Positions 18,262 through 51,000 of a stretch of 64,000 nt of DNA are shown here, piece after piece; position 1 is the first letter of the stretch, and each line of letters starts with the position of its first letter. Made by a program: the position numbers and the translations under genes. Location: assembly GCA_965231015.1 (NCBI GenBank), contig OZ246408.1, positions 620,115-684,114 on the forward strand, written 5' to 3'. Under the pieces are notes generated by a model. That model had not been told where the DNA came from, made no database searches, and saw nothing but the letters and a program-made list of their open reading frames with translations. The DNA comes from an uncultured Gammaproteobacteria bacterium. Its GTDB lineage: Bacteria > Patescibacteriota > Patescibacteriia > UBA9934 > CAZDDW01.

Positions 18262-18735
18262 CTAATTTCCCCAATAAATGTCAAGATTATCTCCTGACTC
18301 AAGTTCATATTCCTCTGCAAAACCCGCAATTACCTCCAAAACCATATCGACCGGCTCACCTGACGAACGTCGCTCGATTTCATCATTTTTTGGAGCTGGC
18401 ACCGCAGTTTCAATACCGATTATTTTACCTTTATTCAGCCAAATTATATCAATATCAACTATCATTCCTTTCATCCAAAAAGTCTGAATTTCCGGTTCAT
18501 TATACACGAATAACATACCCTCTTTTCTACCCAAAGAACTGCGTCCAGACAACCCCTTTACCTTGTCCGGGACACTCCGAACCACCTCTGCCTGAATAAT
18601 AGTATCGTCCGGTAAAATTATGGTTGCCCGGCTTGGATCAACTGACTCCAGGGTGATTATCATCCAGGCAATTATAAGAACTGCGGTCGTGGTCACAGCC
18701 AGAAGAGTGATGATTTTTACCTGATGATTAGGCAT
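18262..18735 (-). CDS. DUF192 (COG1430) domain membrane-anchored protein
   Basis: 157 aa with an N-terminal TM helix, then MLFVY...FWMKGM...DIIWL, characteristic of DUF192. Confidence 0.65.
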   Translation of the reverse strand: MPNHQVKIITLLAVTTTAVLIIAWMIITLESVDPSRATIILPDDTIIQAEVVRSVPDKVKGLSGRSSLGRKEGMLFVYNEPEIQTFWMKGMIVDIDIIWLNKGKIIGIETAVPAPKNDEIERRSSGEPVDMVLEVIAGFAEEYELESGDNLDIYWGN

Positions 18736-19768
18736 GTTTTCGATCGAGTGTAGTTAAGCTCCAAGCAACCACCAACATTAGTACAAGCAAGGATCCTAAA
18801 GCAATAACTTTTTGTCCACTTTGCAAAAATAACGCACCTCCACCAAACATAATTGCTACGCCATAATAGACTAAACATACTTTACGTTGATTCCAGCCCA
18901 AATCGTATAAACGGTGATGTAAATGCTGTCGGTCACCCTGAAAAATTTTTTTGAAACCACCGCTTTGCCAACGACGCATGATCGACCAAGCCACATCAAG
19001 CGCTGGAATACCAATCACAAGCAAAGCAATAGCTAATTTTCCTCCTGATATAACCGCAAGTGTTCCAAGAAGATAACCAACGAATGTGGACCCCCCTTCC
19101 CCTAGAAAAATTAGGGCCGGATTGAAATTCCAAACCAAAAAACCAAGTAAGGCTCCGACTGCTACAAGAGCCAACAAAGCCACATCCGGTTGATAGTAGG
19201 CTGCAGTCAAGGCCAATAAACAAATCATGAAGGTTCCGATCGCACTAACCCCGGTAGCTAAACCATCCACCCCGTCTAGAAACTTGGTTGTGTACATAAC
19301 CCCCATCAACCACAAAAAAACCAAAACATCAGATTGCCAGCTGGTAAGTTCAATTACACCACCTAAGGGGTTGGTCAACTTGTCCACTTCAACCCCAAAA
19401 CCAATCACGAGCAAAGCGGCCACCACCGGAAACCAAAAAGCCACCTTCGGATTTAATCCATATCGGTCATCTACAAAACCACCAAACATGAGCACCAAGC
19501 CGCCCAACAAAAATCCAGAATAATGCCCTAAACCAACTTCTCCACTGGTCAAGGCGTCCCCATTTATCAAAATCAGGGCCATGGTACCGGCAATCGCCAA
19601 GAAAATGGCCAAACCACCCATGAGCGGAATTGGTGTTTGGTGTATCTTTCTTTTCCCATCCGGTCGATCAACCAGGTTGAACCTCAGAGCAATTCGAAAA
19701 ATCAACTGTGTAAAAACAAGGCTCAGGCCAAAGGCTAAGATAAACCATCCGATCCAGACAGAGGTCAT
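18728..19768 (-). CDS. Polyprenyl-phosphate N-acetylhexosamine-1-phosphate transferase (MraY/WecA/TagO family, GT4)
   Basis: 346 aa, polytopic. NLVDRPDGKRKIHQTPIPLMGG and VDDRYGL match the MraY/WecA DDxxD and Mg-site motifs. It sits outside the dcw cluster, so the type is probably WecA/TagO. Confidence 0.75.
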   Translation of the reverse strand: MTSVWIGWFILAFGLSLVFTQLIFRIALRFNLVDRPDGKRKIHQTPIPLMGGLAIFLAIAGTMALILINGDALTSGEVGLGHYSGFLLGGLVLMFGGFVDDRYGLNPKVAFWFPVVAALLVIGFGVEVDKLTNPLGGVIELTSWQSDVLVFLWLMGVMYTTKFLDGVDGLATGVSAIGTFMICLLALTAAYYQPDVALLALVAVGALLGFLVWNFNPALIFLGEGGSTFVGYLLGTLAVISGGKLAIALLVIGIPALDVAWSIMRRWQSGGFKKIFQGDRQHLHHRLYDLGWNQRKVCLVYYGVAIMFGGGALFLQSGQKVIALGSLLVLMLVVAWSLTTLDRKHA

Positions 19769-19771
19769 AGG

Positions 19772-21514
19772 TTATTCACTAAATGAAGTAGTGCGGTAAC
19801 GCGAATAATCAACACCGGTTTCTTGCCAGTCATTACTTGCCAATCCTGCTTTTTCAGACAAGGCGGTCATAAAATCCTCAAAAGTATCCATTTGTTCCCA
19901 TACGCTAGGCAAAAAAGTGGCACTATCTTCCCCCTTGGTTAGAATTACTCCATCCATATTTGGTTGAATAATGTTCAATTCAACTGCTTGAGCTTCAGAT
20001 AAAACAGAGATTTCAATCTTGATGTTTACCAACTCTTCCTCGGTCACCGCCTCAAACCGAGCATCATTAACCGCTGCATCAATAGCCTTGTCACGCACTG
20101 CCAAATAAAGCGGCTGCTCCGCCGTCAGACTACCAATACACCCTCGTAACTCATCTTGAGCCTCAAGCGTCACAAAGACGGCCAACTCCTGCTTCAACTG
20201 CTCATCTGTTGGTTCAATCGGTTCATAGATTTCACCTTCACGGGTTATATACCGCTCAATTGTAGACCGAGCCAATTGTAAAAGGTATGTCTGCTCGGCT
20301 TCAGACAAACTCACGGTGTTAAGTCCAACCTCTTCACCCGGTACACTATAAGCCACGGCCCCATAACCAACTACTCTGGTATCATCATTGGTTACATCTC
20401 CGGTGTTTGCATAATCCAACACCTTGGCTTCCCATCCTTCGCGACGTGCCATTATGTCAGCAACCAAAATCGGGTCAGTTCCACACGCGTTAACCTTAGA
20501 AGCGTCCGGTTCAAGCCCTTCAATAGCCTGTAAAGTGGTTTGATCAATCGGTTCAGCTGTTTCTGCATCCATATAATGAGACAAATCACTGCTAACAACT
20601 AACAATGTTTTTTCATCCATTATTTCTTTGAGCTCATTGGCAATCGTGATTCTGTCTTCATCTTCAATTTGACCGACCAAAATCGGAATAATGGTCGCAT
20701 CCGGCCAAATGTACTGAATAAAAGGCAGATGAATTTCAACAGGATGTTCATCTACAAACGCCACATCCTTGTAAAAAAACAATTCGTTGTCAACCAGATC
20801 AACATTTGATTCATCAATATCCGTTTCTCCGAGTGGGGTTCGCCAAGCATCATACTCGCTTAAAGCCACCCCCTCGAACTCTGTTTGGTGAGCAGAAGCC
20901 ATAATAATGACTCGATTGTAATCCTTGTTCATAACAGTCTTGTAGGCAGAGGCGTCTACGGATCCGGAGTAACGGTAAGCGGCGTGTGGAGCAATAATTG
21001 CCATCACATCCCTATTTTCGACTTTGTTGGTTGCATTCCAAAGTAGAGACTGAATTTGTTTTTCTAGAATTGATTTGCCTTCCGGATAAAATACTCCGGC
21101 CACACTTGGTGGGCGTACGTCTTTGGCTGGCATAGGCTCTTCGATTATTTCTTCTACTACCGGCTCAGTTTCTTCCTCTGAACTTTTGGTTAAAAATTCC
21201 AAGGAAGCTACTGCAACCAGCGAAAGAAAAACAAACACCACAGCAACAATCACCTTAGCCGGCGATTTCTTTTGCCCTGGTTCCTTGGTCTTTGTGGTCT
21301 TCTTACTCGACTTCTTTCTGGACTTTGACTTCTTGGTCGTTTTTTTAGTCCGAGTCTTCTTTGTGGAGGCTTTTCTGGTTTTTTTCTGCTTAGTCTTTTT
21401 TGGAGGTTCCTCCTGAACCTCTTCCTCCACGACTTCAGCTTTCTTCTTGGAACTTTTTTTAGCGGCCGATTTCCGTGGAGTCTTTTTCACAGTTTTTTTC
21501 TTAGTGGCGGCCAT
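19772..21514 (-). CDS. Fusion protein: Lys-rich histone-H1-like tail + TM + Memo-like (AmmeMemoRadiSam protein B) + AMMECR1 domain
   Basis: 580 aa. The N-terminus is KKKTVKKTPRKSAAKK repeats. The Memo region is AGVFYPEGKS...IIAPHAAYRYSGSVDASAYK. The C-terminal AMMECR1 region is FVTLEAQDELRGCIGSL...ARFEAVTEEEL. Confidence 0.65.
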   Translation of the reverse strand: MAATKKKTVKKTPRKSAAKKSSKKKAEVVEEEVQEEPPKKTKQKKTRKASTKKTRTKKTTKKSKSRKKSSKKTTKTKEPGQKKSPAKVIVAVVFVFLSLVAVASLEFLTKSSEEETEPVVEEIIEEPMPAKDVRPPSVAGVFYPEGKSILEKQIQSLLWNATNKVENRDVMAIIAPHAAYRYSGSVDASAYKTVMNKDYNRVIIMASAHQTEFEGVALSEYDAWRTPLGETDIDESNVDLVDNELFFYKDVAFVDEHPVEIHLPFIQYIWPDATIIPILVGQIEDEDRITIANELKEIMDEKTLLVVSSDLSHYMDAETAEPIDQTTLQAIEGLEPDASKVNACGTDPILVADIMARREGWEAKVLDYANTGDVTNDDTRVVGYGAVAYSVPGEEVGLNTVSLSEAEQTYLLQLARSTIERYITREGEIYEPIEPTDEQLKQELAVFVTLEAQDELRGCIGSLTAEQPLYLAVRDKAIDAAVNDARFEAVTEEELVNIKIEISVLSEAQAVELNIIQPNMDGVILTKGEDSATFLPSVWEQMDTFEDFMTALSEKAGLASNDWQETGVDYSRYRTTSFSE

Positions 21515-21547: not shown

Positions 21548-24163
21548 CTATAATTCAGCAGCCTTTTCAATCTCTATTTTTCCGCCTTTTTTAAGTACGA
21601 TTGTATCCCGCCGGGTAGCCTTGTCTTCTAAGAGCACACGAGCCACAGCATCGTCAACCTCATTTTGAATCACCCGACGTAGTGGGCGCGCCCCAAACTT
21701 TGGATCAAAGCCCTTTTCGGCTAATTCCTGCACCGCTGCATCTTCAGCCCGGAAATGTATTCCCTTGGCCTCCAATCGTTCCTCGACCTGACCAATCATT
21801 AAATAGGCAATCTGCACCACTTCATCCATTGCCAAAGGCTTAAAGACAATCACAGCATCAAACCGATTCAAAAATTCAGGACGGTAAATACCTTTTAGTT
21901 CTTCCTCAATTAAATGATTTTTGATCTGATCAAGCGGCGTACCTTGGCTAACTTCTGTTTGAATATATTCGGTTCCCGCATTAGAAGTAGCAATTAAAAC
22001 AACATTGGTAAAATCGATTGTTCGTCCGGCTCCGTCGGTTAATCGGCCATCATCCATGACCTGTAAAAACAGGTTCAAAATATCAGGGTGTGCCTTTTCC
22101 AGCTCGTCCAATAAAAGAAGGGTGAACGGATTTTCTCGAACCGCTTCCGTTAAAAGACCACCTTCACCTTTACCCCCAATCAATCTGGCAATACTGGACT
22201 GGTTCTGATACTCGGACATGTCAAACCGAATCATAGATTCTTCGCGACCAAAGTAGGCTTCGGCTGTGGTTTTAGCCAACTCGGTCTTACCCACTCCGGT
22301 TGGACCTAAAAACAAGAAGTTAGCTATTGGTCGGTTGTCGGATCTTAGCTCGGTTCTGGCTCGACGCAGCGCGGAAGCCACGGCATCAACCGCATCATTT
22401 TGCCCGATCATGCGTTCATGCAAAACCTCCTCAAGCTTGAGAAGCTTGGCTTTTTCTTCTTCAGCCACTTGTGACATTGGAATTTTAGTTTTTTCCGAAA
22501 TAATCCGAGCCACATCCTCGCGCGCCACCAAACTATTCGCACCCTTTTCTTTATTAACAGCTAGCGCAGTTTCCTCACATATTTCAATTGCCTTGGCCGG
22601 TAAAAACTGATCGTGCATGTACCGATCTGAAAGCTTCACCGCCTCTTCTACTGCAGCGTAAGAAAATACAACCTTGTTTTTGTACTCCATGACCCCGATC
22701 TTGGCCTCTAAAATCTGAATTGCTTCATTGATTTCCGGCTCATCAACCCGCACTTTTTGCAGAGCCTGACCAAGCGCCGTGCGTTCAATGGCTTGCGCGT
22801 ATGCCTCCGGAGTGGTGGTAGCAATCAAAAAAGTGAATCGTCGATTTAGAGCATCAATCAAAACCGAGGCCAAATCAACGGTCATTTCTCCACCGGCTGT
22901 CAACCCTGTGATTTGCTCAATATTTTCTACTACTAAAATAATGTTTTTTGACCGAGCAATTTCGTTTAAAACCATTAATAGCCGTTCCTGGACCACTTCG
23001 GGAGCGGCACCAGAAGTTAAATGTGGGATAGAGAGCCGGACCAAACGTTTATCACGCATTATTTGCGGAACTCGCTCCGATACCATGCGCTCGGCAATTC
23101 CATGCACAATCGATTGCTTTCCCACCCCCGGAGGTCCAACTAAAACCACGCTCTCATTTCCCCCTTCAATGACCCTAAAAATAGATTCCAACTCTTGTTC
23201 CCGACCAACCAACATTGGCAACCGACCATAAACCCCAGCCACGGTCAGGTCTTCTGAGACCTGGTCCAGCATTGGAGTGGCCACCGCAGTGTAGGCTCGG
23301 TTCATGGCTCCGGTTGGTTTTCTAGAAGCAGCTCGTTGATACTCCTCATAACGCTTGCGCAGCTCTTCATCAATTCGAATCCAGGCCACAGCGTTTTCAA
23401 CCTGCTCTCGTTCAATCCCCAGCCCATAAAACAATTCTTGAATAAATTCATCACGACGATAACTTTCTAGAAATAATTCTACCGGACTAACCAGTTCTCG
23501 CTCATGTTCATACGCATTTAAATATGCTGCCAGCAATGTCTCTCGGGTTTGATCAGAAAAGCCGACCTTGTTTTTTGGTAGACTGTTTAGTTTTCGATTA
23601 AGTGGCCCTTTGACCGTTTCAAAAGAAAGACCTAAGCGGACAAACAAAATTTTAATTGGATCAGCAGAAAGTGTCCCAACAAACAAATGGATCGGCTCTA
23701 CTGTTTGTCCAAACCGTTCAGCCAGCTCATATGCTTCCTCAACCGATTTCATACCACTCGCTGAATAAGCTCGAGCCACGTTGACCTTGGATTTTTTAGT
23801 TTCTTCTCCCAGATCATTTATCTCCGGCACCTCGCCCTCATAAGACTTCCTTTCCACAGTTAGCTTATGCCGAACCGCTTCAGACAACCGATAAAACAAA
23901 AACATTCCACCAAGAGCTGCCAACCAAAATGCTGCCGAGGCCAAACCTCCACGCAACCAATAATCAAGACTGGCTAATTTTTCTGGCGGACCAACAATAA
24001 CGGCGGAAAAAATAAAATAGGCAAAACAAACCAAAACTGCAGCAATCACCAAACCGTTGATGATTCCAGAAATAATATCTCGTGTTTTTTTCAACACTAA
24101 AGTGGCTCGGTCAATCCGCTCGCTCCAAATATATACCTTGTCCTTTAGTTCAAAACCGATCAT
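21548..24163 (-). CDS. ClpB/ClpC-family two-ring AAA+ chaperone with N-terminal transmembrane anchor
   Basis: 871 aa with two TM helices in the first ~90 aa. D1 has Walker A VLVGPPGVGKQS; D2 has LFLGPTGVGKTELAKT. A ClpB-like middle region and C-terminal domain are present. Confidence 0.8.
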   Translation of the reverse strand: MIGFELKDKVYIWSERIDRATLVLKKTRDIISGIINGLVIAAVLVCFAYFIFSAVIVGPPEKLASLDYWLRGGLASAAFWLAALGGMFLFYRLSEAVRHKLTVERKSYEGEVPEINDLGEETKKSKVNVARAYSASGMKSVEEAYELAERFGQTVEPIHLFVGTLSADPIKILFVRLGLSFETVKGPLNRKLNSLPKNKVGFSDQTRETLLAAYLNAYEHERELVSPVELFLESYRRDEFIQELFYGLGIEREQVENAVAWIRIDEELRKRYEEYQRAASRKPTGAMNRAYTAVATPMLDQVSEDLTVAGVYGRLPMLVGREQELESIFRVIEGGNESVVLVGPPGVGKQSIVHGIAERMVSERVPQIMRDKRLVRLSIPHLTSGAAPEVVQERLLMVLNEIARSKNIILVVENIEQITGLTAGGEMTVDLASVLIDALNRRFTFLIATTTPEAYAQAIERTALGQALQKVRVDEPEINEAIQILEAKIGVMEYKNKVVFSYAAVEEAVKLSDRYMHDQFLPAKAIEICEETALAVNKEKGANSLVAREDVARIISEKTKIPMSQVAEEEKAKLLKLEEVLHERMIGQNDAVDAVASALRRARTELRSDNRPIANFLFLGPTGVGKTELAKTTAEAYFGREESMIRFDMSEYQNQSSIARLIGGKGEGGLLTEAVRENPFTLLLLDELEKAHPDILNLFLQVMDDGRLTDGAGRTIDFTNVVLIATSNAGTEYIQTEVSQGTPLDQIKNHLIEEELKGIYRPEFLNRFDAVIVFKPLAMDEVVQIAYLMIGQVEERLEAKGIHFRAEDAAVQELAEKGFDPKFGARPLRRVIQNEVDDAVARVLLEDKATRRDTIVLKKGGKIEIEKAAEL

Positions 24164-24555
24164 AGTATTCCAAAATATGGATTGCTAAACCCAATAATAT
24201 TAACTACAATCAGCAGCACAACCAGCGGCAGTAAAACCAAATACAACATGAACAATATCACTAATAGGATTGACCAAATAACAAAAACTATTCCCTTGCC
24301 GATCAAAACCACAAAACGCATGAAAATACTGATTAAACGTCCGCTTAGCTCGGTTTCACCGTACATGGGAACAAACAGGTTTTTGAGCCAGACTCCAAGT
24401 CCCAAATTCTGCCATTGTTGACCAATCGAGCCAAAACAAAACTTCGCGGCGTTAGCCAAACCGCGGGTATACCACCAGACAGGAAAACCAATAACTCCAC
24501 CGAACAAATCGATGAAGAAGTACTTCATTCCAATGACCACAACATTCTGCGCCAT
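24160..24555 (-). CDS. Hypothetical small membrane protein (131 aa)
   Basis: 3-4 predicted TM helices. The start overlaps the upstream gene's stop by 4 nt. Confidence 0.45.
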   Translation of the reverse strand: MAQNVVVIGMKYFFIDLFGGVIGFPVWWYTRGLANAAKFCFGSIGQQWQNLGLGVWLKNLFVPMYGETELSGRLISIFMRFVVLIGKGIVFVIWSILLVILFMLYLVLLPLVVLLIVVNIIGFSNPYFGIL

Positions 24556-24579
24556 AATGTGGATATTATAGCAGAAAAA

Positions 24580-25182
24580 CTAGGCTTTGTTGATCTCTTG
24601 ATAAAATCGATCCCGATCGGTTGTAAAACGAGTTCTAAAATTAGAATCTATTTTTGGATTTGCTGCTTTTTGCCACTTTTCGATTCCAGAAAAAGCAAAT
24701 TCCGGTTCGTGGGTAATCAAATCCACAATTCGCTCTTTGTCCCAGTGCTGAATATCGTATTCGTCAATCTTCTCTTGAATAGCCAGATGAACCAGTTCAT
24801 GAATCAAGGTTTTAAACGGGTCACGTATTCTTAAACTCAAAATTATCGTGCTTGGGGGTTCATAAGAACCACCAACCCCGTATCGAGTTAAATTGATTTC
24901 GATTTTACGAGGTAAGGTGAGCTTTAGAGCCTGAAAAGCCGACTTGATTTGACTCATGTTTTGCTCAAAGTCAGAGTTCAAATTGTCAGCCGCCTCTTGA
25001 TATCTCTGTTCGCGATATTCTTCATCTACAACAAACTTAATCTCATCTCTTGAATTATACTCGGCAACCCCTTGGGGCAAAGTCGGGTCATAGCCCTGCT
25101 CTAAATACCAAGACAATTTATCAAGAGTTTTTTGAATCCTCCGCACCTCAAAATCTTTACTAAATTGAATCCTATATTCCAT
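24580..25182 (-). CDS. Hypothetical protein with HExxH motif (200 aa)
   Basis: LIHELVHLAIQ suggests a zincin-like fold. No confident family. Confidence 0.45.
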   Translation of the reverse strand: MEYRIQFSKDFEVRRIQKTLDKLSWYLEQGYDPTLPQGVAEYNSRDEIKFVVDEEYREQRYQEAADNLNSDFEQNMSQIKSAFQALKLTLPRKIEINLTRYGVGGSYEPPSTIILSLRIRDPFKTLIHELVHLAIQEKIDEYDIQHWDKERIVDLITHEPEFAFSGIEKWQKAANPKIDSNFRTRFTTDRDRFYQEINKA

Positions 25183-25196
25183 ACCTAAATAGATAT

Positions 25197-25223
25197 TTCG
25201 AAAAAGCCCTGCTTGGGCAGGGC
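25197..25223 (-). terminator. Intrinsic terminator (GCCCTGC-CCAA-GCAGGGC plus U-tract)
   Basis: Palindromic hairpin at 25206-25223 with a U-tract on the minus strand (plus A-tract 25199-25205). It lies between the 25233 stop and the 25182 start. Confidence 0.55.
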
Positions 25224-25232
25224 TTTTAATCC

Positions 25233-42097: not shown

Positions 42098-45000
42098 TTA
42101 TTCTTCAATTAATGTATCAGACTCCTCAACCGGAGCTTCTTCAGGCTGGGCTGGCTCCTCTTCCACCACAGTTTCTTCCTGATCGGGATCAACATGTTGA
42201 GTCCCTACATCCTCTTCGACCTCTTCTTCGGTCATAGGCTCGTCATCTTCTACTTCTTCAACTACCTCCTCCTCTTCTTCTTCTCCTTCGGCTATCTCCT
42301 CATCAATTACTGGTTCTTCTTCAACCACCTCTTCCTCTTCTTCTACTGGTTCCTCTTCCTCCGGCTCTTCATCTATCTGTTCGTCCGGATCAACCATGCC
42401 TTCAACCGGATCATTTATATGACACTGGCCGTCCCAATAATAGTTTGTCAGCTGTTTGCACTCGTCCAGGGTATCACAGGCGTTCAAATTATCAACCCCA
42501 CACTCACCTTGATCAATAACCAGCTCAATTTCTTCAGTGGTTCCGTCTGAAATGAACAGCTTGGCATTATTTGAACCAAAAGCGTGCCAACTGAATTCAA
42601 CGCTCTCGCCATACATCTTATCTATCTCAATGTTAAATCCGGTTAAAGTTACATCTTTGATAATGTAGTCAATGTCCTCATGTAAATAGTTCATGAGAGT
42701 AGCAGTAACAATTGGTTGATATTGATACTCTTCCTCAAATTCAACCTGAACATTGGTCTCGTATTTCAGGATGCGAGCCAGACCAACCGTATCACCGTTA
42801 AAGGTAGTGTGTTTCTTTACCACCAAATTATCAACCTCGCCACTCATAACGAGAGTCGAACCACTTCCCTGTTCAACAGACTCAGTTTCTTGAATATCAT
42901 TCATACTATTTTGTATTGTCTCAATCACTCCCTGTTGATCCTGAATTGATTTCATCACAAGCGGAATAAAACTCTTATAATCCACCATCTTATACCCGTC
43001 CGAACGAGTGGTTACGGCAATTGGATAAATATCTTCAACCTGTTGAGCAATTACCCCGTGGTAGAATGTTTCATCATCGTCTGTAAAAGCTGATCTGTAT
43101 CGGAAATCCACAATCTCAACGGCCATTAAATCTTCAATGGAAAGTTCAGTAGCGGTGATATCCCGCTTCAAGCGCTCGTCTGACGGAGCTGTGGTATCAA
43201 TTGTATTTTGTCCAATGTAAAGAGTAGCTGAGCCTGTACCGTGGGTTTCGTCATCAATTAAATTATCCCCACTATCAACACCGATTGTCACACCAGAAGC
43301 TACCACTAATCCGCCGTTAGTTGGATCAGTGTCGCCAATACCAACGATTCCAGAACTAGATAAACGCATTACTTCTGAACCACTGGTTGAGAAGCCTAAA
43401 GTATCGGCCGAAATTCGGTACATTCCAGTGTTAGAGTCGTCGTTGAACCGGTATGATGGAGAACCAGCTGTTCCGTTTGCGTTAGCAAACGAACTGGCTC
43501 TAACTTGTCCAACAACCTGGAATTTAGTTGAAGGTGAGTCCGTACCAATTCCAACCCTCTCATTAGTAGTATCAATGTTCAAAATTGAAGTACCACCATC
43601 TGCATCTAAGAATTGGAAGCCGTTGGTTGAGTCAGTGCTATTTTGGAAAGTTAATAGATCATTAGTGGTATCGAAGGTTACTGCAGTTTCATCACCATCA
43701 GCCCCAATGTGTAAGGTGGCTGGGCCAAGATATAAATCCTGCCAACGAACTGTGCTTGAACCAAGGTCAAAGGTGTCATCTGCTGATGGAAGAAGGTCGT
43801 CACTTAATATAAAGGTTGTGGTATCGTGTCTTAAATATTCTGTTGTGGCATTGTTGTAATACAAGTACTCATCCAGGGTGATGTTACCATCAGCCTCAAT
43901 ATCATCGGCAACTAAAAGGTCGCTAGTCCCATCGATGTTGCTAGCCACACCACCTCCAACATCAAGCAGAGCCGCTGGACTGTCATCCCCAATTCCCACA
44001 TCTTCTAAAAAGTAGCTTTCCCCGGCTGAAACATAGAGGGCAAATCCACTACTTTGTGTATTTAGTTCCAATAAGTTTGCCGTGGCCGAAGAATTGGTGT
44101 CGCGGAAGCTGGCAAAAGCAGAAGCGGTCGCCGCTGTGCCTCGACGAGCATCAAATACGGAACCGGTACCATTATTGGTCAGGCTTATCATGTTAATGTT
44201 TGAATCTTGGTCAGCACTTAAAACACCCCCTGCGCCATTTTGATCAATCTCAATTGCGTTTCCGGTACCGTCATTTTGAATTTTCAAGACATCCTGATCT
44301 GAACCATCGTCTTCAGTAAATGATACTAGTGGTCCGTCAGCATCAACAGCCGCACGGCGTGAATACACATTCAAACCAATTCCCGGTGCATCGTTTCGAA
44401 CAAACAAAGCCCCGGATGAACTGGTGGCAAACCCAACATCACCAATTTGATCTATCAATAGCGCATTACCTGTACCATCATTGGTCAGATACATTACGTT
44501 TTGATCTGATGCACCATCCTCATAGAGCTCAAACAAGGCATCATCCGTGGTAGCTGCGTCTTCATTTCTGTATAAATAAAGTGCCCCGGCTCCGCCACCG
44601 GCCGTAACTCTTAAACTGGCGGCGTTATTGGTGCTAGCATCACCGATATGAGTAATCGACACAGCATAATTACTGGTGTCAGTTCCACGTACAGCCAACA
44701 TCTCAGAAGGACTATTGGTACCAATTCCCAAATATTTGTTTGTGTCGTCCCAGAAAAGGTTGGCATTATCTTCATCCAAATCCCCGGAAGCATCAGCAAA
44801 CATAACTGAACCGGTAGTAAAGCTAGAATCAAGAGAGCCGGACAAAGTTCCGTAAATTGTGCCATCGACTTCAAGGTCGTCGGCTACCAATAAGTCATCT
44901 GTTCCGTCGATGAAGTTAACAACTCCGCCACCGACATCTAACATGGCCGAAGGTGATGGATCTCCAATCCCAATATACCCCGTATTATCTGTGATCCTTA

Positions 45001-48000
45001 ACCTTTCCGTAGGTACCCCGACCCCATTATCTGTTGCAAAGCTGTGACGGGTGGTGGCATAGAAAGAGAAGTAACCATCTCCAAAGTCAGCGACACCATT
45101 ACTATCAGCTAAAATTTTAGTATTGTGAGCAGCATTTCCGATTTCAATATAATTTCCAACATTATCATACTGAATCGAACTAACGCTTGATCCTCCATCA
45201 TTAAAGTAGATCCAATCTGTTACTCGGATATCACCAGAGACATCAAGTTCAACCCCTGGTGTATTCGTCCCAATACCTAACCGATTATTGCCATCATCCC
45301 AGAATAAGTTGGTGTTATCTTGACTTAATAACCCGGAAGAACCGATAAACGGCATGGAGCCGGTAGTCATATCGGCAATGGATAACGTCTCACCGGTGTT
45401 TAATAACAGATCATCGCCCGGGTTGGTTGGTGATAAATCAGTTCCGGTCTTGGACCAATACGATGACCCTGCACCCAATGAGGCGGTATAAGTTCCAAGA
45501 GCGTTCAAAGCATGAACAATAGAGGTCGAGGTCTCACCGCCGGCACCAATTGTTGAACCAATAGATCCATCATCGGCAAAAATTTCCCCGGCATCATTTA
45601 ATAAATCGTCTCCAAGAGCAGAACCGGTCTGAGTAAAGTAAAGGCTTGGCTCTTGATTATCCCGGAAATGGATCAATCCTCCGCCACCAGATGAATCAGC
45701 GTTCAAAGTGATTAAAGCTCCGCCATTATTTACAGAATCAACTTCAAAATCAACTTCTGAATTACCATTTCCTGCCGTGGCGTGCACATAAAAACGAGCA
45801 TCACCGTTAGTTGACGGATTGTTGCTGATATTAAATTGAGCTATGGAGTCACCATTGGTATTCGTGTTTTGCAGATACACTTGGAAATCAGTGTCTCCGT
45901 TAGTGGAGTTAGAGGTTACCCCGCGATAAATACCTTGCACCTCATTTCCATCACCATTATCCTGAACTAAAAATTGAGCATACCGATTACCCGACATTAA
46001 CATGTCGTCTCCTGTGTGCATAGCCACTACTTGTGTATCAATTCCAATATCATCCGGGTCAATAAAGTTGAACAAACCAACCAGTCCGGTATTCCCTCCC
46101 AAACTTCCTTCGTTGGAATATGGATCAATGATTAAACCACCGGTTAAGGTTGTAAAGTCCACCCCGTCCCCTAGAACCGAATATCCTCCACCGGAATAAC
46201 TATTGTTCATGTAGGCGAGTCCGGATCCAAAATCAATGGCCGGCGGATTGTTGGTGACATCGTTTTGATTAATGGTCAAGGCGGCGTTATTGCTTGTATC
46301 CGGAACTGTAATTTCTACTGCCCCACTGTCCGCAGTGATTGATCGGCCGGCTCCGGCGCCGCCAGTGTCATATGACGCATCCAGAGTTCCGCCGCCGGCA
46401 CCGCCAAAATTCACCACGTAATTTCCCAAACTGTTCAGAGCATGCACAATAGACGTTGAGGTTTCACCACCTCCTCCTATGACTGAACCAAGCGTACCGG
46501 TTGAGCTAAAAATTTCCCCAGCACTATTCAACAAATCGTCTCCCAATGCCGAGTTATACTGCGTAAAATTCAGAGACTCGTTGTCATCCTCAAACTCAAT
46601 CCATGACCTTTGGTTTGGATCCAAGTCAGTGGTGGCCGATATAGTAATGTAGGCGTTTCCAACATATCCCACCCCTTCTTTGTCAGCCTCAATCCAGGTT
46701 TGAGCATCTCCACCGTCGTCGCTATTACGTGAACGTACATGGCTTACAGCATCACTAGAGCCACCGCCATCTGCAATTTCAGAATAAAATTGTGCCTCCA
46801 CATCGTTATCTGAACCAGCATTTTCTAAAGCGGCAATGGTGGCACTTCTGGTTGGCGTACCCGTAAAGAAGTTTTGATTAGAAGCATAAATGGCTGAACC
46901 TTGGGTTTCTCGACCGCTTGTGACCGCGCCGGTAAAATTATAGATTCCGGCTATCCCCATGTCACCGGCTGCAAAATAAGATTCATTGCCATAGGGATCA
47001 TAAATCAAACCACCGGTTGTGGTTCCCAAATCTGGTCCATCACTCATCATGAAAAAATTTGTGGTCAAATCAGCCTCAAGCACCTGCGGTCCGGTTCCGG
47101 AAAACTCGATCGAAGCTCCGCTGTCGGTGTTATTGGTGAGCTGTAAAACTGAAGATTCAACCGTGGTATCATTTTGAACGATTTCCAATCCAACATTACC
47201 AGAACCATCCGGTACAATGATTTGTACTTCATCAGAATCTGCCGTAATAATTCTTCCAGCCCCAGACCCACCGAAGTCATAAGCCATATCCAAAGTTCCA
47301 CCGGCTCCGGCACCAATGCCGGCGGCATATGTTCCGACCGCATTAATAGCGTGAATTAGCGAAAGTGAAGACTCGCTGAAACTTGATCCGATCGTACCGC
47401 TCGAAGAATAAATCTCACCAGGAGCGTTTAGTAAGTCTCCGCCCAGGGCAACACTATCTTGCGTCAAATACAAATTATTTTCTCTTTCATCAACAAAATA
47501 TACATCACCGTCCGGCGACAACAACTGAATTGTTGAAGTACCTCCGGCTGAAGCACTTAAAGTGATAGTTGAATCGTCGGCTATACTGTTATTTGCCTGA
47601 AGTAAAATAGTGGATTCACCGGACGTTCCGGTTGTTTTGCTTGCTCCGACTAAAAATTCTGCATCTCCGGTGTTCGTGGCACTAACCACGTTAAAAGTCA
47701 TGTCGCTGTCACCGGTTGCGGCTGATGTGGTGCGAGCATCAAAATCAATGGACACATCACCGGTTACATCGGTCTCGTTTAAAATAATTCTTGAGTAACG
47801 CGTGATAGTACCGCCGAAATCGTCATCACTATTATTCAAAACGATTTGTTGAGTAGGTACCCCGGCTGTAGCGGCACCAATAAAATTCATAATTCCGGAA
47901 AATCCCTCTGAACCACCAAGCGATGGGTCATTGCCGTACGGATCAATGAATAATCCTGAAGTTAGATCACTAAACTGGGCTCCGTTACCGACAATGCTCC

Positions 48001-51000
48001 AACCACTGGAAAGGTCGTTGGTAATAGCCGCGTAACCGGATCCGAAATCAATTCCACCCGGATAATTGGTCGTATCGTTTTGAGTGATTGATAAAGCGGC
48101 GGTGTTTGAGTTGTCAGGGACTGTAATTTGAACAGCCCCGCTGTCGGCTGTAATTAGTCGACCAGCTCCGGCACCGCCGAAATCATAGGCTTGATCAAGC
48201 GTTCCACCGGCTCCGGCTCCCAGACCGGCTGCATAAGTACCAACCGCGTTTAAAGCATGGACGAGTGAATCAGAGGTTTCACCAGAAACCGATCCGATCG
48301 TTCCGGTGGCTTCAAAAATTTCACCAGCGGCGTTTAATAAATCATCACCAAAGAAAGCACTGTCTTGGGTAAAAGCAAGGTCATCCCGCGTATCCGTAAA
48401 GCTGATAAAACCATCTCCGGTACCATTCAAAACCCGAGCCTGAATTGCTGTGTAAGCATTTCCGTTAGCGGCAACGTTATCAATATATGAACCAAGACTG
48501 GTGTAGGCATGGTGACCTAAATCTTCGTTTATAGATTTAATCTCTACAACTGCATCGTTATCTCCGGTTTCAGCTACCTCAGCGACTAATTGAGCCCGAA
48601 CGTCTTGTCCTCCTTCAGCATCAGTTTCCCAAAGGTATAAATACACAGAACGAGTTGGACTGTCGTTTGGAAAATCATTCATGGCTTGCATGAAAGACAA
48701 GGAACGATCTTGACTCGCCTCATCTGCTCCAATGTAATTTCCGAAACCGACGGCACCCTGATTCAAACCAGTATAAACTGGGTTGTTACCATATGGATCT
48801 ATCATGAATCCAGCATTTATATCTGCAACCGTAACATCGTCAGCTATAGCGATCCAATTACTGGTCAGGTCAGTTAAAAGCGAGTGTCCTCCAACACCGG
48901 TAAACTCAATCGCCGCCCCATCGCCGGCATTACTGATCGTTAAAGCTGACGGGTCATTTGTAGCATCATTTTGAGTAATGGTAAGCACGGAATGATTGGA
49001 ATTGTTCGGGGTAATGAATTGGATCGTTCCCGAGTCAGCCGTAATGGTTCTACCGTTACCGGCACCACCAAAGTCGTAAGCCTGATCCAGTGTACCACCG
49101 CCGCCGGCACCAATTCCGGCCGCATAAGACCCAACCGCATTCAGGGCATGTACTAAAGAATCGGATGTTTCACCAACACCTATTGAAGACCCAATGGTTC
49201 CAGTACTACTGAAGACCTCTCCCGGAGCATTTAACAAGTCATCACCCAAGCTAGAGCCGTATTGAGTGAAGGTCAGCTGGTCATTTTCGTCACGGAATGA
49301 AATCCATGAATCCATGGTGCCAGTATCATCAACCGCGGCTTCTAACTCAATATATGCATCTCCACTATTTCCGGCTCCACGTTTGTGAGCCTCAATGTGT
49401 ACGACCGAATCTCCACCATTATCTTCATGACTTGATTCTAAAACAGCTTCGGCGTCATCTGTGCCACCACCCGGTTCAATCTGAGCCAATGATCTGACTT
49501 CGACATTTCCATCTTCATCTGTTTCAAAAGCACCCACAACAGCCCAACGAGTTGGCGAACCGGTCAGATGGTTTGCGTTACCGGAATAATTAACTGATCC
49601 GGCTAAATTATTTCCGGCTGTTGCCGCTCCAACATAGTTATAATAACCGACCACCCCGTAACCAACCGCTGAAAAGGCCGGACTTACTCCGTAAGGATCA
49701 GCCAATAAACCGCCTGTTGACGTGGTGCCCATGTCGTTGGAGTCTCCCATAACATAATAATTGGAGGTAATATCTTCAAAAGTGGTTGAATAAACACTGG
49801 ATCCGGAAAAATGCAGACCAGATGCTCCGGAAGCATTGTTGGTAATCTGAACAGCCGGGTCAGTAGCCGCGGTATTGTTGTGCGTGGCTAAAAGACTGCT
49901 TCCTTGACTGTAGTTCCTAATCTTTAGTGCCGCGTCAGTAAAATCTTTTCCGTGTGTCACCTCTAAGGCACGCTCAGCCATAGGATTTCCAAAAGTCACA
50001 CTGCCTTCTAAAACATCCGCACTGACCGATTCAGCCGGAAATCCAGGATTACCTCCAATCACGGTTTGAACCGTTGCCACTGTTCCACTAGGATCAAGAG
50101 AAACGAGCTGGTACATACCATCATGAGCCGCTGAGCCAGACACCAAAAATGTTGTGGAAGCTGATTCTGTAATATTTAAACTGCGAAGATTAGTTGAAAA
50201 AGTGATTGTGTTTCCTGATAAAGTTACTGCCTCTGTCAATAATTCATAAGAACTGGTCAAACCAAGAGTTCTTTCATTTCCCATAATTGTCACACCGAAA
50301 GCAAATTCACCAACTGCTGGTTCAGAATTCACAACCAAGGTTGCAGGAAAATCAGTAAAGGTCGTCGTTCCAAGTCCAGAATTCAATTTTAGTAAAGAGT
50401 CACTAAAAGTAGCTGTTTCTGCTTGTCCGGCATCACTAATGTACACCGGCCCGCTGTCAGCTATAATGCTTCGCCCGACACCGGCACCTCCGGTATCATA
50501 TGACTGATCAAGCGTGCCGCCACCGCCACCTAACGAATCTACATATTCCTTATCAACCAAAGATCGGTTTGTGTAGTTTGATGAATAATCAGCTGCATAA
50601 ACAGCTCCTTCAAAACCAACTACATCACTGGTAATCGATATGTTTTCCGGAGAAACATCAAGACTGGTACTTGTAAGATTATTATCATCACTTCTTTCAA
50701 AAGACAGGTCATTTGTTCGCATCCAAGTATTCATGATTTCACCCGTAGCAGAATTCTCAGCCGTGTAGAAAACTCCTCCTGAATCCTGATTCAGTTCGCT
50801 AAAATAAATACCCGTGTTCATTGATTGAATCCATTCATCCTCCCCAATCTCTACCATCATTCCCGTATTCTCAATAATAAAATAATTTCCGTTCAAATCA
50901 AACGTACGATCTTCAGAAAGAGAACCGTCGGAATTGAAGATATTAATACTTGCATTATCTACATATTCCTTATCAACCAAAGATCGGTTTGTGTAGTCAG

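What the first reader, a model, noticed from the sequence alone, without database searches (positions are those of the whole stretch)
21548..24163. ClpB/ClpC-type double-ring AAA+ chaperone with an N-terminal two-helix membrane anchor replacing the usual Clp N-domain
Residues ~30-95 form two hydrophobic helices (IINGLVIAAVLVCFAYFIFSAVIVG; LASAAFWLAALGGMFLFY). An ~80-aa linker follows before D1 (Walker A GPPGVGKQS, with Gln at the usual Thr position) and D2 (GPTGVGKTE). Membrane-tethered Hsp100 unfoldases are rare. This could be a disaggregase working at the membrane or a FtsH-like quality-control substitute in a reduced genome.
Basis: partly seen in the sequence, partly recalled or inferred. 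Interest (0 to 1): 0.5.

Follow-up and report, generated by a model that had tools for sequence, protein, structure and literature searches.

The report
Membrane-tethered, pore-loop-less Clp ATPase with partner
This gene encodes a Clp/Hsp100-type double-ring ATPase of Patescibacteria that is anchored in the membrane, keeps its normal N-domain but has lost the parts that normally thread or degrade proteins, and always sits next to a small unknown membrane protein, so it probably works differently from its textbook relatives.

Summary
The ORF (21548-24163, minus strand, 871 aa) and its two N-terminal hydrophobic helices are real and conserved. About 115 of 116 close homologues and 124 of 125 cluster representatives carry the first helix.

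The Clp N-domain is not replaced; it lies at aa 135-280, after the anchor. Walker A of D1 lies about 250 aa after the second helix, not about 80.

The protein also differs from working Clp unfoldases, and the differences hold across the family:
- D1 is degenerate: Walker B IDE became VEN, the Walker A Thr is hypervariable and the pore-loop Tyr is gone.
- D2 keeps every ATPase motif but lost six residues of the GYVG pore loop.
- There is no M-domain and no ClpP-docking loop.

A small conserved membrane protein with no Pfam family and no fold match is encoded directly upstream, usually with a 4-bp overlap. This holds in 72 of 75 related genomes and in five distant relatives.

My best reading is a membrane-tethered, ClpP- and DnaK-independent remodeller driven by D2 alone, working with that partner. 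I do not read it as a classical disaggregase or an FtsH substitute. I found no publication on it. It is a new variant of a known kind.

The parts
21548..24163 (-). Whole gene: membrane-tethered Clp/Hsp100 homologue, 871 aa
   Evidence: ORF. Pfam finds AAA, AAA_lid_9, AAA_2 and ClpB_D2-small. The exact protein is found on three public contigs.
24077..24163 (-). Cytoplasmic N-tail, aa 1-29. Predicted beta-hairpin at aa 2-12, net basic.
   Evidence: AF2 secondary structure. Family mean in the last 20 residues before TM1 is 3.9 K+R against 2.8 D+E.
23990..24076 (-). TM1, aa 30-58
   Evidence: KD19 peak 2.86. Present in 115 of 116 close homologues and 124 of 125 cluster representatives. Part of AF2 helix 19-57.
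23948..23989 (-). Short extracytoplasmic loop, aa 59-72, with a conserved (F/Y)W
   Evidence: Family mean is 0.7 K+R over about 12 residues.
23888..23947 (-). TM2, aa 73-92. Weaker hydrophobicity; ends in the conserved FLFYR.
   Evidence: KD19 peak 1.64. A second segment is seen in 98 of 116 close homologues at KD>=1.6 and 110 of 116 at KD>=1.4, and in 74 and 91 of 125 representatives. AF2 helix 74-98.
23324..23761 (-). Divergent Clp N-domain, aa 135-280 (two four-helix repeats)
   Evidence: The family profile aligns to ClpC from residue 6 and to ClpA 3-725. AF2 shows eight helices. PF02861 is on record for most homologues.
23288..23320 (-). Family-specific conserved motif KPTGAMNRAYT in the N-domain-to-D1 linker, aa 282-292
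   Evidence: Near-invariant in alignments. pLDDT is below 50 at aa 286-290. It was used successfully as a family-specific search pattern.
22529..23266 (-). D1 AAA+ module, aa 300-545. Probably binds nucleotide but has degenerate hydrolysis and pore motifs.
   Evidence: Pfam AAA at aa 339-461 and AAA_lid_9 at aa 478-575. Motif survey.
23111..23137 (-). D1 Walker A, GPPGVGKQS (aa 343-351)
   Evidence: The Lys is kept in 113 of 117 homologues. The following residue, canonically Thr, varies among D, T, Q, S, G, K, N, E, A and R.
22991..23014 (-). D1 pore-loop site, SGAAPEVV (aa 384-391), in place of AGTKYRGEF
   Evidence: Alignment to ClpC. The Tyr column is a gap in 117 of 117 close homologues, and no Tyr dominates in the representatives.
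22922..22942 (-). D1 degenerate Walker B, IILVVEN (aa 408-414), in place of IILFIDE
   Evidence: At the catalytic Glu position the close set has D 60, N 46, G 5, H 4 and Q 2 of 117. Glu occurs in only 9 of 134 representatives.
21836..22528 (-). D2 AAA+ module, aa 546-776. All ATPase motifs are intact, and it follows D1 directly with no M-domain.
   Evidence: Pfam AAA_2, E 5.6e-52. The M-domain columns are gaps in 117 of 117. ClpA models match in a single stretch.
22280..22306 (-). D2 Walker A, GPTGVGKTE (aa 620-628)
   Evidence: G, K and T are invariant in 117 of 117.
22148..22186 (-). Truncated D2 pore loop, RLIG-GKGE-GGLLT (aa 660-672)
   Evidence: Six residues are missing relative to ClpC RLVG-SPPGYVGYDE-GGQLT. 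PGYV is absent in 117 of 117 close homologues. In the representatives the loop is 3-11 residues long, and an aromatic sits at the canonical site in only 9 of 134.
22103..22120 (-). D2 Walker B, LLLLDE (aa 682-687)
   Evidence: D and E are invariant in 117 of 117 and present in 133 of 134.
21932..21961 (-). Position of the ClpP-docking loop, aa 735-744. The loop is absent.
   Evidence: ClpC KYVGFNVQDETQNH aligns to SQGT plus a 6-7 residue gap in all members. There is no [ILVM]G[FLM] motif in D2.
21857..21883 (-). D2 arginine-finger segment, RPEFLNRFD (aa 761-769)
   Evidence: N766, R767, F768 and D769 are invariant.
21674..21694 (-). D2 sensor-2, GARPLRR (aa 824-830)
   Evidence: Invariant.
21596..21835 (-). 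ClpB_D2-small C-terminal domain, aa 777-856
   Evidence: Pfam PF10431, E 1.4e-22.
24160..24555 (-). Partner gene: a 131-aa helical membrane protein with conserved FPxWWY and KNxFxPMYG...GRxIS motifs. Its stop overlaps the clp start (ATGA).
   Evidence: A homologue lies directly upstream in 72 of 75 GTDB loci. It is also there in five distant loci, with hmmsearch E from 2.6e-33 to 8.9e-09. No Pfam or NCBIfam hit. The AF2 model has pLDDT 92.5, and Foldseek against PDB finds no match below E of 4.
24565..24593 (-). Promoter-like site, TCAACA-17-TGcTATAAT, about 9 nt before the partner gene's ATG
   Evidence: Consensus scan, 10 of 12 matches with an extended -10. The number of such sites in the region is not above chance, so this is only a positional hint.
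18728..19768 (-). WecA-like glycosyltransferase family 4 gene. It is a lineage-level operon neighbour, separated from clp here by a Memo/AMMECR1 gene.
   Evidence: PF00953. The best NCBIfam model is WecA, below its cut-off. It lies directly downstream of clp in 55 of 70 loci, mostly with a 4-bp overlap, but not in three distant loci.

Best explanation
The gene encodes a Patescibacteria-specific derivative of ClpC/ClpB-type Hsp100 that is held at the cytoplasmic face of the membrane.

Shown by the analyses here:
- An N-in/C-in hairpin of two hydrophobic helices (aa 30-92) precedes a complete cytoplasmic Clp_N, D1, D2 and D2-small body.
- D1 keeps the P-loop lysine but has lost the Walker B acidic pair, the Walker A Thr and part of the Arg fingers.
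- D2 keeps every catalytic motif.
- The M-domain, the ClpP-docking loop and the aromatic pore loops of both rings are missing across the family.
- A small conserved membrane protein is encoded immediately upstream, usually overlapping the clp start, throughout the family.

Inferred:
- The protein forms a hexamer in which D1 is a nucleotide-binding assembly ring and D2 is the only motor. This resembles ClpA D1, NSF D2 and Pex1/6 D1.
- The hairpin associates in the membrane with the small partner.
- The machine works without ClpP and without DnaK.
- Because it lacks tyrosine paddles, it more likely pries apart or reshapes membrane-associated clients, or its partner, in short ATP-driven strokes than threads whole polypeptides. 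This would be a Torsin- or NSF-like mode of action.

The client is unknown. In the Uhrbacteria lineage the operon link to a WecA-like initiating glycosyltransferase points to the cell envelope.
For: - Architecture.
- TM hairpin and topology: hydropathy; family charge distribution of 3.9, 0.7 and 4.9 K+R in the tail, loop and post-TM2 segments; conservation counts.
- D1 degeneracy together with D2 integrity, in 117 close homologues and 133 representatives of 50%-identity clusters.
- D2 pore loop deleted or hypervariable.
- No M-domain and no ClpP loop.
- Partner gene.
- The scores are below all NCBIfam equivalog cut-offs (ClpB 536 against 1232, ClpA 471 against 993), so it is not an orthodox ClpA, ClpB or ClpV.
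- Torsins are a precedent for a Clp/Hsp100-related AAA+ that lacks aromatic pore loops, is membrane-associated and depends on membrane-anchored cofactors (PMC5425593).
Against: - No experiment or complex prediction links the partner physically to the hairpin. Adjacency and overlap are only genomic evidence.
- TM2 is only marginally hydrophobic, and in about a quarter of distant representatives it falls below KD 1.4. No dedicated topology predictor was run.
- Loss of the pore-loop Tyr does not prove loss of translocation. About 9 of 134 representatives keep GAPPG[YF], and other loop residues could grip substrate.
- In some genomes the gene lies a few genes downstream of hrcA-grpE-dnaK-dnaJ, which is compatible with an ordinary chaperone role.
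- Synteny with the glycosyltransferase is lost in distant members.
Confidence: 0.5

Rival explanations
1. It is a conventional threading disaggregase or unfoldase that is simply tethered to the membrane. It would extract or dissolve aggregated or misinserted membrane proteins by pulling them through the central pore.
For: - Overall Hsp100 fold, with 31-41% identity to ClpC and ClpB structures.
- An intact D2 motor.
- A retained substrate- or adaptor-binding N-domain.
- Proximity to the dnaK operon in some relatives.
- A few distant members keep an aromatic in the D2 loop.
Against: - Both pore-loop tyrosines are absent in all 117 close homologues, and the D2 loop is shortened by six residues.
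- The M-domain needed for DnaK coupling is absent in all members.
- The length and sequence of the D2 loop drift freely across the family, which is not expected of a substrate-gripping element.
- No CIRCE heat-shock operator is present in the window or in the 88 fetched loci.
Confidence: 0.2
2. It is the ATPase of a proteolytic quality-control machine, either an FtsH substitute or a ClpP partner.
For: - An FtsH-like layout: an N-terminal TM hairpin followed by a cytoplasmic AAA+ body.
- In this window only, a 200-aa ORF with an HExxH motif lies just upstream of the gene pair.
Against: - No peptidase domain is found in the protein.
- There is no [IVL]G[FL] ClpP-docking loop, and the loop region is deleted family-wide.
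- The HExxH ORF has no family hit and is absent from the 80 related loci.
- No clpP gene is seen in any fetched neighbourhood.
Confidence: 0.05
3. Together with the small partner it forms the cytoplasmic motor and membrane ring of a new translocon or envelope-assembly device. This would be comparable to HSP101 on the PTEX pore. It could also be a regulator of the adjacent WecA-like glycan-initiating enzyme.
For: - The gene pair is obligate across the family.
- Six copies of the hairpin plus the partner would give a large membrane assembly. This is an inference.
- The clp stop overlaps the glycosyltransferase start in most Uhrbacteria loci.
- In this window, mraZ, rsmH and ftsL-like genes lie a few genes upstream.
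Against: - A translocation motor would be expected to keep pore-loop aromatics.
- The glycosyltransferase link disappears in distant members.
- The partner has no fold match to any channel.
Confidence: 0.15
4. The N-terminal extension is an annotation artefact caused by a mis-called start, and the real protein is soluble.
For: None found.
Against: - The extension is conserved in sequence and length in homologues that cover 100% of the query.
- It is predicted with high confidence, with pLDDT of 86-94 over aa 1-100.
- It begins exactly at the stop of the upstream gene in most genomes.
- It is present in 124 of 125 representatives.
Confidence: 0.01

Closest known systems
ClpC (B. subtilis, S. 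aureus; M. tuberculosis ClpC1)
   Same: Best sequence and fold match: phmmer E 2e-129, Foldseek E 3e-57, 31-41% identity. The domain order is the same: Clp_N, D1, D2, D2-small. D2 catalytic motifs are identical.
   Different: - It has an N-terminal TM hairpin.
- It lacks the M-domain, which serves as the MecA/adaptor and resting-state element.
- It lacks the VGF ClpP loop.
- It lacks a Tyr in either pore loop.
- D1 Walker B is degenerate.
ClpB / Hsp104 disaggregases
   Same: A two-ring Hsp100 without a ClpP loop. The best NCBIfam model is ClpB, at 536 bits.
   Different: - The score is far below the equivalog cut-off of 1232.
- The long coiled-coil M-domain that binds DnaK/Hsp70 is completely absent.
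- The pore tyrosines are absent.
- It is membrane-tethered.
ClpA
   Same: No M-domain, so D1 joins D2 directly. ClpA models and structures align in one uninterrupted stretch. From general knowledge of ClpA, D1 serves mainly assembly and D2 is the main motor.
   Different: There is no IGL ClpP-docking loop and no pore-loop Tyr. D1 cannot hydrolyse ATP by the canonical mechanism. It has a TM hairpin. It scores below the ClpA cut-off (471 against 993).
Torsin ATPases with LAP1/LULL1 (functional analogy only)
   Same: A Clp/Hsp100-related AAA+ without aromatic pore loops. It is membrane-associated through an N-terminal hydrophobic segment and depends on membrane-anchored partner proteins (PMC5425593).
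   Different: Torsins have a single AAA+ ring, sit in the ER lumen and lack their own arginine finger. Here there are two rings, the body is cytoplasmic and the D2 arginine finger is invariant. No common descent is implied.
FtsH
   Same: An N-terminal two-helix anchor followed by a cytoplasmic hexameric AAA+ body.
   Different: FtsH has one classical-clade AAA module with an aromatic pore loop and an M41 zinc protease domain. None of these is present here.
Type II AAA+ proteins with one degenerate ring (NSF, Pex1/Pex6)
   Same: One ring keeps nucleotide binding but not hydrolysis and serves assembly, while the other is the motor. Pex1/6 is recruited to a membrane by a small membrane protein. 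This comparison rests on general knowledge and was not tested here.
   Different: They belong to a different AAA clade and to eukaryotes, and they retain pore-loop aromatics in the active ring.

Membership tests
Clp/Hsp100 class I (two AAA+ modules) | Clp N-domain (double four-helix repeat) | tested here: met
   The family profile aligns to ClpC residues 6-145 and to ClpA from residue 3. AF2 shows eight helices at aa 135-280. PF02861 is on record for most homologues. The query alone is below the Pfam threshold.
Clp/Hsp100 class I (two AAA+ modules) | D1 (AAA plus AAA_lid_9) and D2 (AAA_2 plus ClpB_D2-small) modules | tested here: met
   Pfam E-values are 3.4e-18, 2.2e-11, 5.6e-52 and 1.4e-22. 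All 55 aligned members hit the same four families.
ClpB (disaggregase) | Coiled-coil M-domain between D1 and D2 for DnaK coupling | tested here: not met
   About 58 alignment columns of the ClpC M-domain are gaps in 117 of 117 members. ClpB models match in two stretches.
ClpB (disaggregase) | NCBIfam TIGR03346 equivalog cut-off | tested here: not met
   536.4 bits against a cut-off of 1232.1.
ClpB / ClpC / ClpA (threading unfoldases) | Conserved pore-loop tyrosines: KYRG in D1 and GYVG in D2 | tested here: not met
   D1 has SGAAPEVV and D2 has GGKGEGG. The tyrosines are absent in 117 of 117 close homologues. An aromatic at the D2 site occurs in only 9 of 134 representatives.
ClpC / ClpA / ClpX (ClpP partners) | [IVL]G[FL] ClpP-docking loop in the last AAA+ module | tested here: not met
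   No such tripeptide occurs in D2. The loop region carries a 6-7 residue deletion family-wide.
ClpA | NCBIfam TIGR02639 equivalog cut-off | tested here: not met
   470.6 bits against a cut-off of 993.15.
Catalytically active D1 ring | Walker A GK[TS] and Walker B hhhhDE | tested here: not met
   The query has GKQ and VVEN. The family is hypervariable at both positions, while the Lys is conserved.
Catalytically active D2 ring | Walker A, Walker B, sensor 1, arginine finger and sensor 2 | tested here: met
   All are invariant in 117 of 117 members.
FtsH | M41 zinc metalloprotease domain C-terminal to the AAA module | tested here: not met
   There is no peptidase family among the Pfam hits, and the C-terminus is ClpB_D2-small.
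Integral membrane protein (N-in/C-in hairpin) | Two membrane-spanning helices with positive-inside flanks | tested here: inconclusive
   Hydropathy, charge bias, conservation and AF2 helices all agree. However, TM2 is marginal, no dedicated predictor such as DeepTMHMM or TOPCONS was available, and there is no experiment.
Torsin-like (cofactor-activated, non-threading AAA+) | Arginine finger supplied by a membrane cofactor | tested here: not met
   The D2 arginine finger R767 is invariant within the protein itself. The partner has an invariant Arg (R80), but its role cannot be tested here.

The most novel reading that the evidence does not exclude
The pair (small membrane protein plus hairpin-anchored Clp) is a previously unrecognised bacterial membrane machine. 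It would be a hexameric, Torsin-like, non-threading Hsp100 whose single active ring uses ATP to remodel a membrane-embedded partner ring or envelope-biogenesis clients. It would be specific to, and widespread in, the ultra-small episymbiotic Patescibacteria.
Probability: 0.3. Interest if true: 0.8.

Novelty: new variant of a known kind. Interest (0 to 1): 0.6.

Why it matters
Hsp100/Clp proteins are a textbook case of substrate threading by tyrosine pore loops. Here a large natural family covers at least 150 clusters at 50% identity. It has kept a perfectly conserved ATPase ring while discarding the pore tyrosines, the DnaK-coupling domain and the protease-docking loop. It has also gained a membrane anchor and an obligate small membrane partner.

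That combination suggests another way of using the Hsp100 motor. It would give a bacterial counterpart to the poorly understood Torsin-type, cofactor-dependent AAA+ proteins. It also marks an unstudied, lineage-wide membrane component of Patescibacteria, organisms whose cell-surface biology underlies their episymbiotic lifestyle.

Practically, database labels such as 'ATP-dependent Clp protease ATP-binding subunit ClpC' for these proteins are misleading.

Tried and rejected
- Pfam on the isolated N-terminal pieces gave no Clp_N hit and only insignificant holin/DUF5079 hits. The N-domain had to be shown by a family profile and by structure instead.
- Counting Clp_N hits per member with current Pfam did not place it among the 25 most frequent families.
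- A divergent 20-sequence N-region alignment was too variable for the locus search. A closer 8-sequence alignment worked.
- No second Clp paralogue exists in the 64-kb window.
- A CIRCE/HrcA operator search was negative in the window and in the loci.
- Foldseek of the partner model against PDB found nothing below E of 4.
- The AlphaFold database library was not available.
- Model coordinates are not exposed, so pore geometry and the contact between the N-tail hairpin and strand 125-128 could not be measured.
- Seven literature searches found no description of a TM-anchored Hsp100 in CPR bacteria. A check of Meheust 2019 found no mention of Clp, AAA, chaperone, FtsH or protease.
- I could not test whether the same genomes carry FtsH, ClpXP, Lon or canonical ClpB, because whole genomes are not retrievable with these tools.
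- A linker-fused partner-plus-hairpin co-fold was considered.
Full report
**1. What is at the coordinates**

Window 21548..24163 on the minus strand is a single 871-aa ORF. Pfam finds two AAA+ modules: AAA at aa 339-461 with AAA_lid_9 at aa 478-575, and AAA_2 at aa 611-770. It also finds the ClpB_D2-small domain at aa 777-856.

NCBIfam ranks ClpB, ClpA, ClpK, ClpG and ClpV models highest, but all fall far below their curated cut-offs. ClpB scores 536 against 1232 and ClpA scores 471 against 993.

They are the only places in the protein where 19-residue Kyte-Doolittle hydropathy exceeds 1.6, with peaks of 2.86 and 1.64. Walker A of D1 is GPPGVGKQS (aa 343-351) and Walker A of D2 is GPTGVGKTE (aa 620-628).

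The exact protein occurs on three public contigs, one of them longer than 1 Mb.

**2. The start codon and the anchor are real**

The ATG at 24163 is the first start of the ORF and overlaps the stop of the upstream gene (ATGA). Homologues of 48-93% identity cover 100% of the query and have the same length. Residues 1-100 are modelled with pLDDT 83-94.

The first hydrophobic segment is present in 115 of 116 N-terminally complete close homologues. It is also present in 124 of 125 representatives of 50%-identity clusters.

The second segment is weaker. It is seen in 98 of 116 close homologues at KD>=1.6 and in 110 of 116 at KD>=1.4. Among the representatives the counts are 74 and 91 of 125.

Charges follow the positive-inside rule across the family. 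The tail before TM1 has 3.9 K+R, the roughly 12-residue loop has 0.7, and the 20 residues after TM2 have 4.9. This places both ends, and the ATPase body, in the cytoplasm. No dedicated topology predictor was available, so this step rests on hydropathy, charge pattern and conservation.

**3.

Walker A of D1 lies about 250 aa after TM2, not about 80. The intervening region is a Clp N-domain.

- A profile of 55 family members aligns from profile position 140 onto residue 6 of B. subtilis ClpC. It aligns onto E. coli ClpA residues 3-725 in one uninterrupted stretch.
- The AlphaFold model (mean pLDDT 85.7) shows eight helices at aa 135-280.
- Foldseek aligns about 800-830 columns to full-length ClpC chains.
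- Pfam Clp_N is on record for most homologues.

The query's own N-domain is too divergent for Pfam, which may explain the misreading. The anchor is therefore added in front of the N-domain; it does not replace it.

**4.

I aligned 117 close homologues and, separately, 133 full-length representatives from an exhaustive HMMER search, together with B. subtilis ClpC.

*D1*
- The P-loop Lys is kept in 113 of 117 close homologues.
- The following Thr is replaced by almost anything: D, T, Q, S, G, K, N, E, A or R.
- Walker B IILFIDE is IILVVEN in the query.
- At the catalytic Glu position the close set has D 60, N 46, G 5, H 4 and Q 2.
- Glu appears in only 9 of 134 representatives.
- The KYRG pore-loop Tyr column is a gap in 117 of 117.
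- The paired Arg fingers are reduced to R/Q followed by V/I.

*D2*
- Walker A, Walker B (DE in 117 of 117), sensor 1 (TSN), the arginine finger (NRFD) and sensor 2 (GARPLRR) are all invariant.
- The pore loop RLVG-SPPGYVGYDE-GGQLT of ClpC is RLIG-GKGE-GGLLT here, six residues shorter and without an aromatic.
- PGYV is missing in 117 of 117 close homologues.
- Across the wider family the loop varies from 3 to 11 residues.
- Only about 9 of 134 representatives still have GAPPG[YF].
- A loop that drifts this freely next to invariant catalytic motifs does not look like a substrate-gripping element under selection.

*Between and after the rings*
- The entire M-domain is absent in all members.
- At the position of the ClpC VGF ClpP-docking loop there is a 6-7 residue deletion and no [IVL]G[FL].

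**5. A conserved partner**

The 131-aa ORF at 24160..24555 (minus strand) is a helical membrane protein with no Pfam or NCBIfam family.

A search of one genome per GTDB species with a family-specific pattern returned 80 loci. In 72 of the 75 loci that have enough upstream DNA, a homologue of this small protein ends at or overlaps the clp start on the same strand.

The same holds for five loci whose Clp proteins are only 33-38% identical to the query. Hmmsearch with the partner profile gives E-values from 2.6e-33 to 8.9e-09.

Its invariant residues are W27, W28, G32, W56, P63, M64, S76 and R80. They form the FPxWWY and KNxFxPMYG...GRxIS motifs. In databases it is always a stand-alone 'hypothetical protein' of Patescibacteria. 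Its model is confident (pLDDT 92.5), yet it matches no solved fold (best E of 4).

One genome (L077) has lost the partner, the hairpin and D2 together. This is anecdotal, but it fits a single functional unit.

**6. Wider context**

In Uhrbacteria-type genomes the order is tgt, partner, clp, WecA-like GT4, DUF192, rplU. The clp stop overlaps the GT4 start in most cases, and GT4 follows directly in 55 of 70 loci. The GT4 protein resembles WecA more than MraY.

This window, and two relatives, carry a Memo/AMMECR1 fusion gene inserted between clp and GT4. In three distant members the GT4 link is gone while the partner stays. The pair is therefore the core of the module, and the envelope link is a lineage-level hint.

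In this window, mraZ, rsmH and an ftsL-like gene lie a few genes upstream. In some relatives hrcA-grpE-dnaK-dnaJ lies upstream instead. No CIRCE element is present.

A promoter-like TGnTATAAT sits about 9 nt before the partner's ATG. A palindromic terminator-like hairpin lies at 25202-25227. Both are consensus matches only.

All informative record names are Candidatus Uhrbacteria, Parcubacteria or Patescibacteria.

**7. How it most likely works**

Shown here:
- A cytoplasmic Clp_N, D1, D2 body on an N-terminal hairpin.
- A D1 that can probably bind but not hydrolyse ATP.
- A fully equipped D2.
- No DnaK-coupling domain, no ClpP-docking loop and no pore tyrosines.
- An obligate neighbouring membrane protein.

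Inferred:
- The protein forms a hexamer with D1 as the assembly ring and D2 as the sole motor.
- It is held on the membrane together with the partner.
- It acts on membrane-proximal clients, or on the partner itself, by short ATP-driven conformational strokes rather than by processive threading.

The nearest functional precedent is the Torsin system. Torsins are Clp/Hsp100-related, lack aromatic pore loops, are membrane-associated and are controlled by membrane-anchored cofactors (PMC5425593). Unlike Torsins, this protein keeps its own arginine finger. I put about 0.5 on this overall picture. Confidence is high for the architecture and low for the mode of action and the client.

**8. Rivals**

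- A conventional tethered disaggregase or unfoldase (0.2). It is weakened by the lost tyrosines, the drifting D2 loop and the missing M-domain.
- A proteolytic FtsH or ClpP-type machine (0.05). It lacks a protease domain and a docking loop. The HExxH ORF upstream is private to this species.
- A translocon or envelope-assembly motor (0.15). This remains open.
- A mis-called start. This is excluded.

**9. Comparison and novelty**

By sequence and fold the protein belongs to class I Clp/Hsp100 and is closest to ClpC and ClpB. It is ClpA-like in lacking an M-domain. It fails the defining tests for ClpB, ClpC, ClpA and FtsH (see the membership table).

Seven full-text searches found no description of such a family. 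Databases call these proteins 'ClpC'.

The family is large. The best 150 representatives of 50%-identity clusters all match in one stretch, and none has GYVG in D2. I rate it a new variant of a known kind, with interest 0.6.

**10. Limits**

- No topology predictor, no multimer prediction and no access to model coordinates.
- No whole-genome census of other AAA+ proteases or chaperones.
- No experiments.

Noticed in passing
window 24580-25182 (-): A 200-aa ORF directly upstream of the partner gene carries an HExxH motif (LIHELVHLAI). It has no Pfam or NCBIfam hit and has no homologue in any of the 80 related GTDB loci, so it is not part of the conserved module.
   Followed up: partly
window 19772-21514 (-): A 580-aa protein with a lysine-rich N-terminal tail and a hydrophobic segment, followed by fused AmmeMemoRadiSam system proteins B (Memo) and A (AMMECR1). 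It is inserted between clp and the GT4 gene only here and in loci L007 and L008. No radical-SAM partner gene is seen nearby.
   Followed up: partly
window 23288-23320 (-), aa 282-292 of the Clp protein: The motif KPTGAMNRA(Y/M)T in the N-domain-to-D1 linker is almost invariant in the family but is modelled as disordered (pLDDT below 50). It looks like a short linear docking or regulatory motif and has no counterpart in ClpB, ClpC or ClpA.
   Followed up: partly
L077:5590-7300 (Candidatus Uhrbacteria GW2011_GWC2_41_11): The clp homologue keeps the N-tail, N-domain and D1 but lacks the TM hairpin and D2. The partner gene is also missing, and tgt abuts clp directly. This may be a pseudogene or a natural co-loss of the three elements, but an assembly error is not excluded.
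   Followed up: partly
window 25202-25227: A perfect 11-bp palindromic GC-rich hairpin is flanked by A and T runs, so it looks like a bidirectional terminator. It lies between the 376-aa and 200-aa genes and may mark the 5' boundary of the transcription unit that holds the pair.
   Followed up: no
window 24565-24593 (-): An extended -10 promoter-like site (TCAACA-17-TGcTATAAT) ends only about 9 nt before the partner gene's ATG. This would give a leaderless or nearly leaderless mRNA.
   Followed up: no
window 42098-52798 (-): A giant ORF of 3566 aa. It was not examined.
   Followed up: no
window 53899-56502 (-), 57580-59148 (-), 59521-62454 (-): An 867-aa protein with Big_5/DUF4215 surface-type domains, and two PAS-domain histidine kinases (one with dCache and HAMP) next to each other. 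This is fairly elaborate sensing for a small-genome organism.
   Followed up: no
loci L007, L008, L010, L012, L013 and many others: Many GTDB records that carry this family are titled 'uncultured Gammaproteobacteria bacterium' (TPA_asm MAG series). Their sequence identity and tgt-partner-clp-GT4 synteny are those of Uhrbacteria, so the titles look like placeholder or mislabelled taxonomy.
   Followed up: partly
P0131, P0142, P0169, P0176, P0177, P0137, P0146, P0165, P0215: A minority of distant family members still carry GAPPG[YF] in the D2 pore loop while having the TM anchor. They are candidate evolutionary intermediates between a threading ClpC-like ancestor and the loop-less form.
   Followed up: partly
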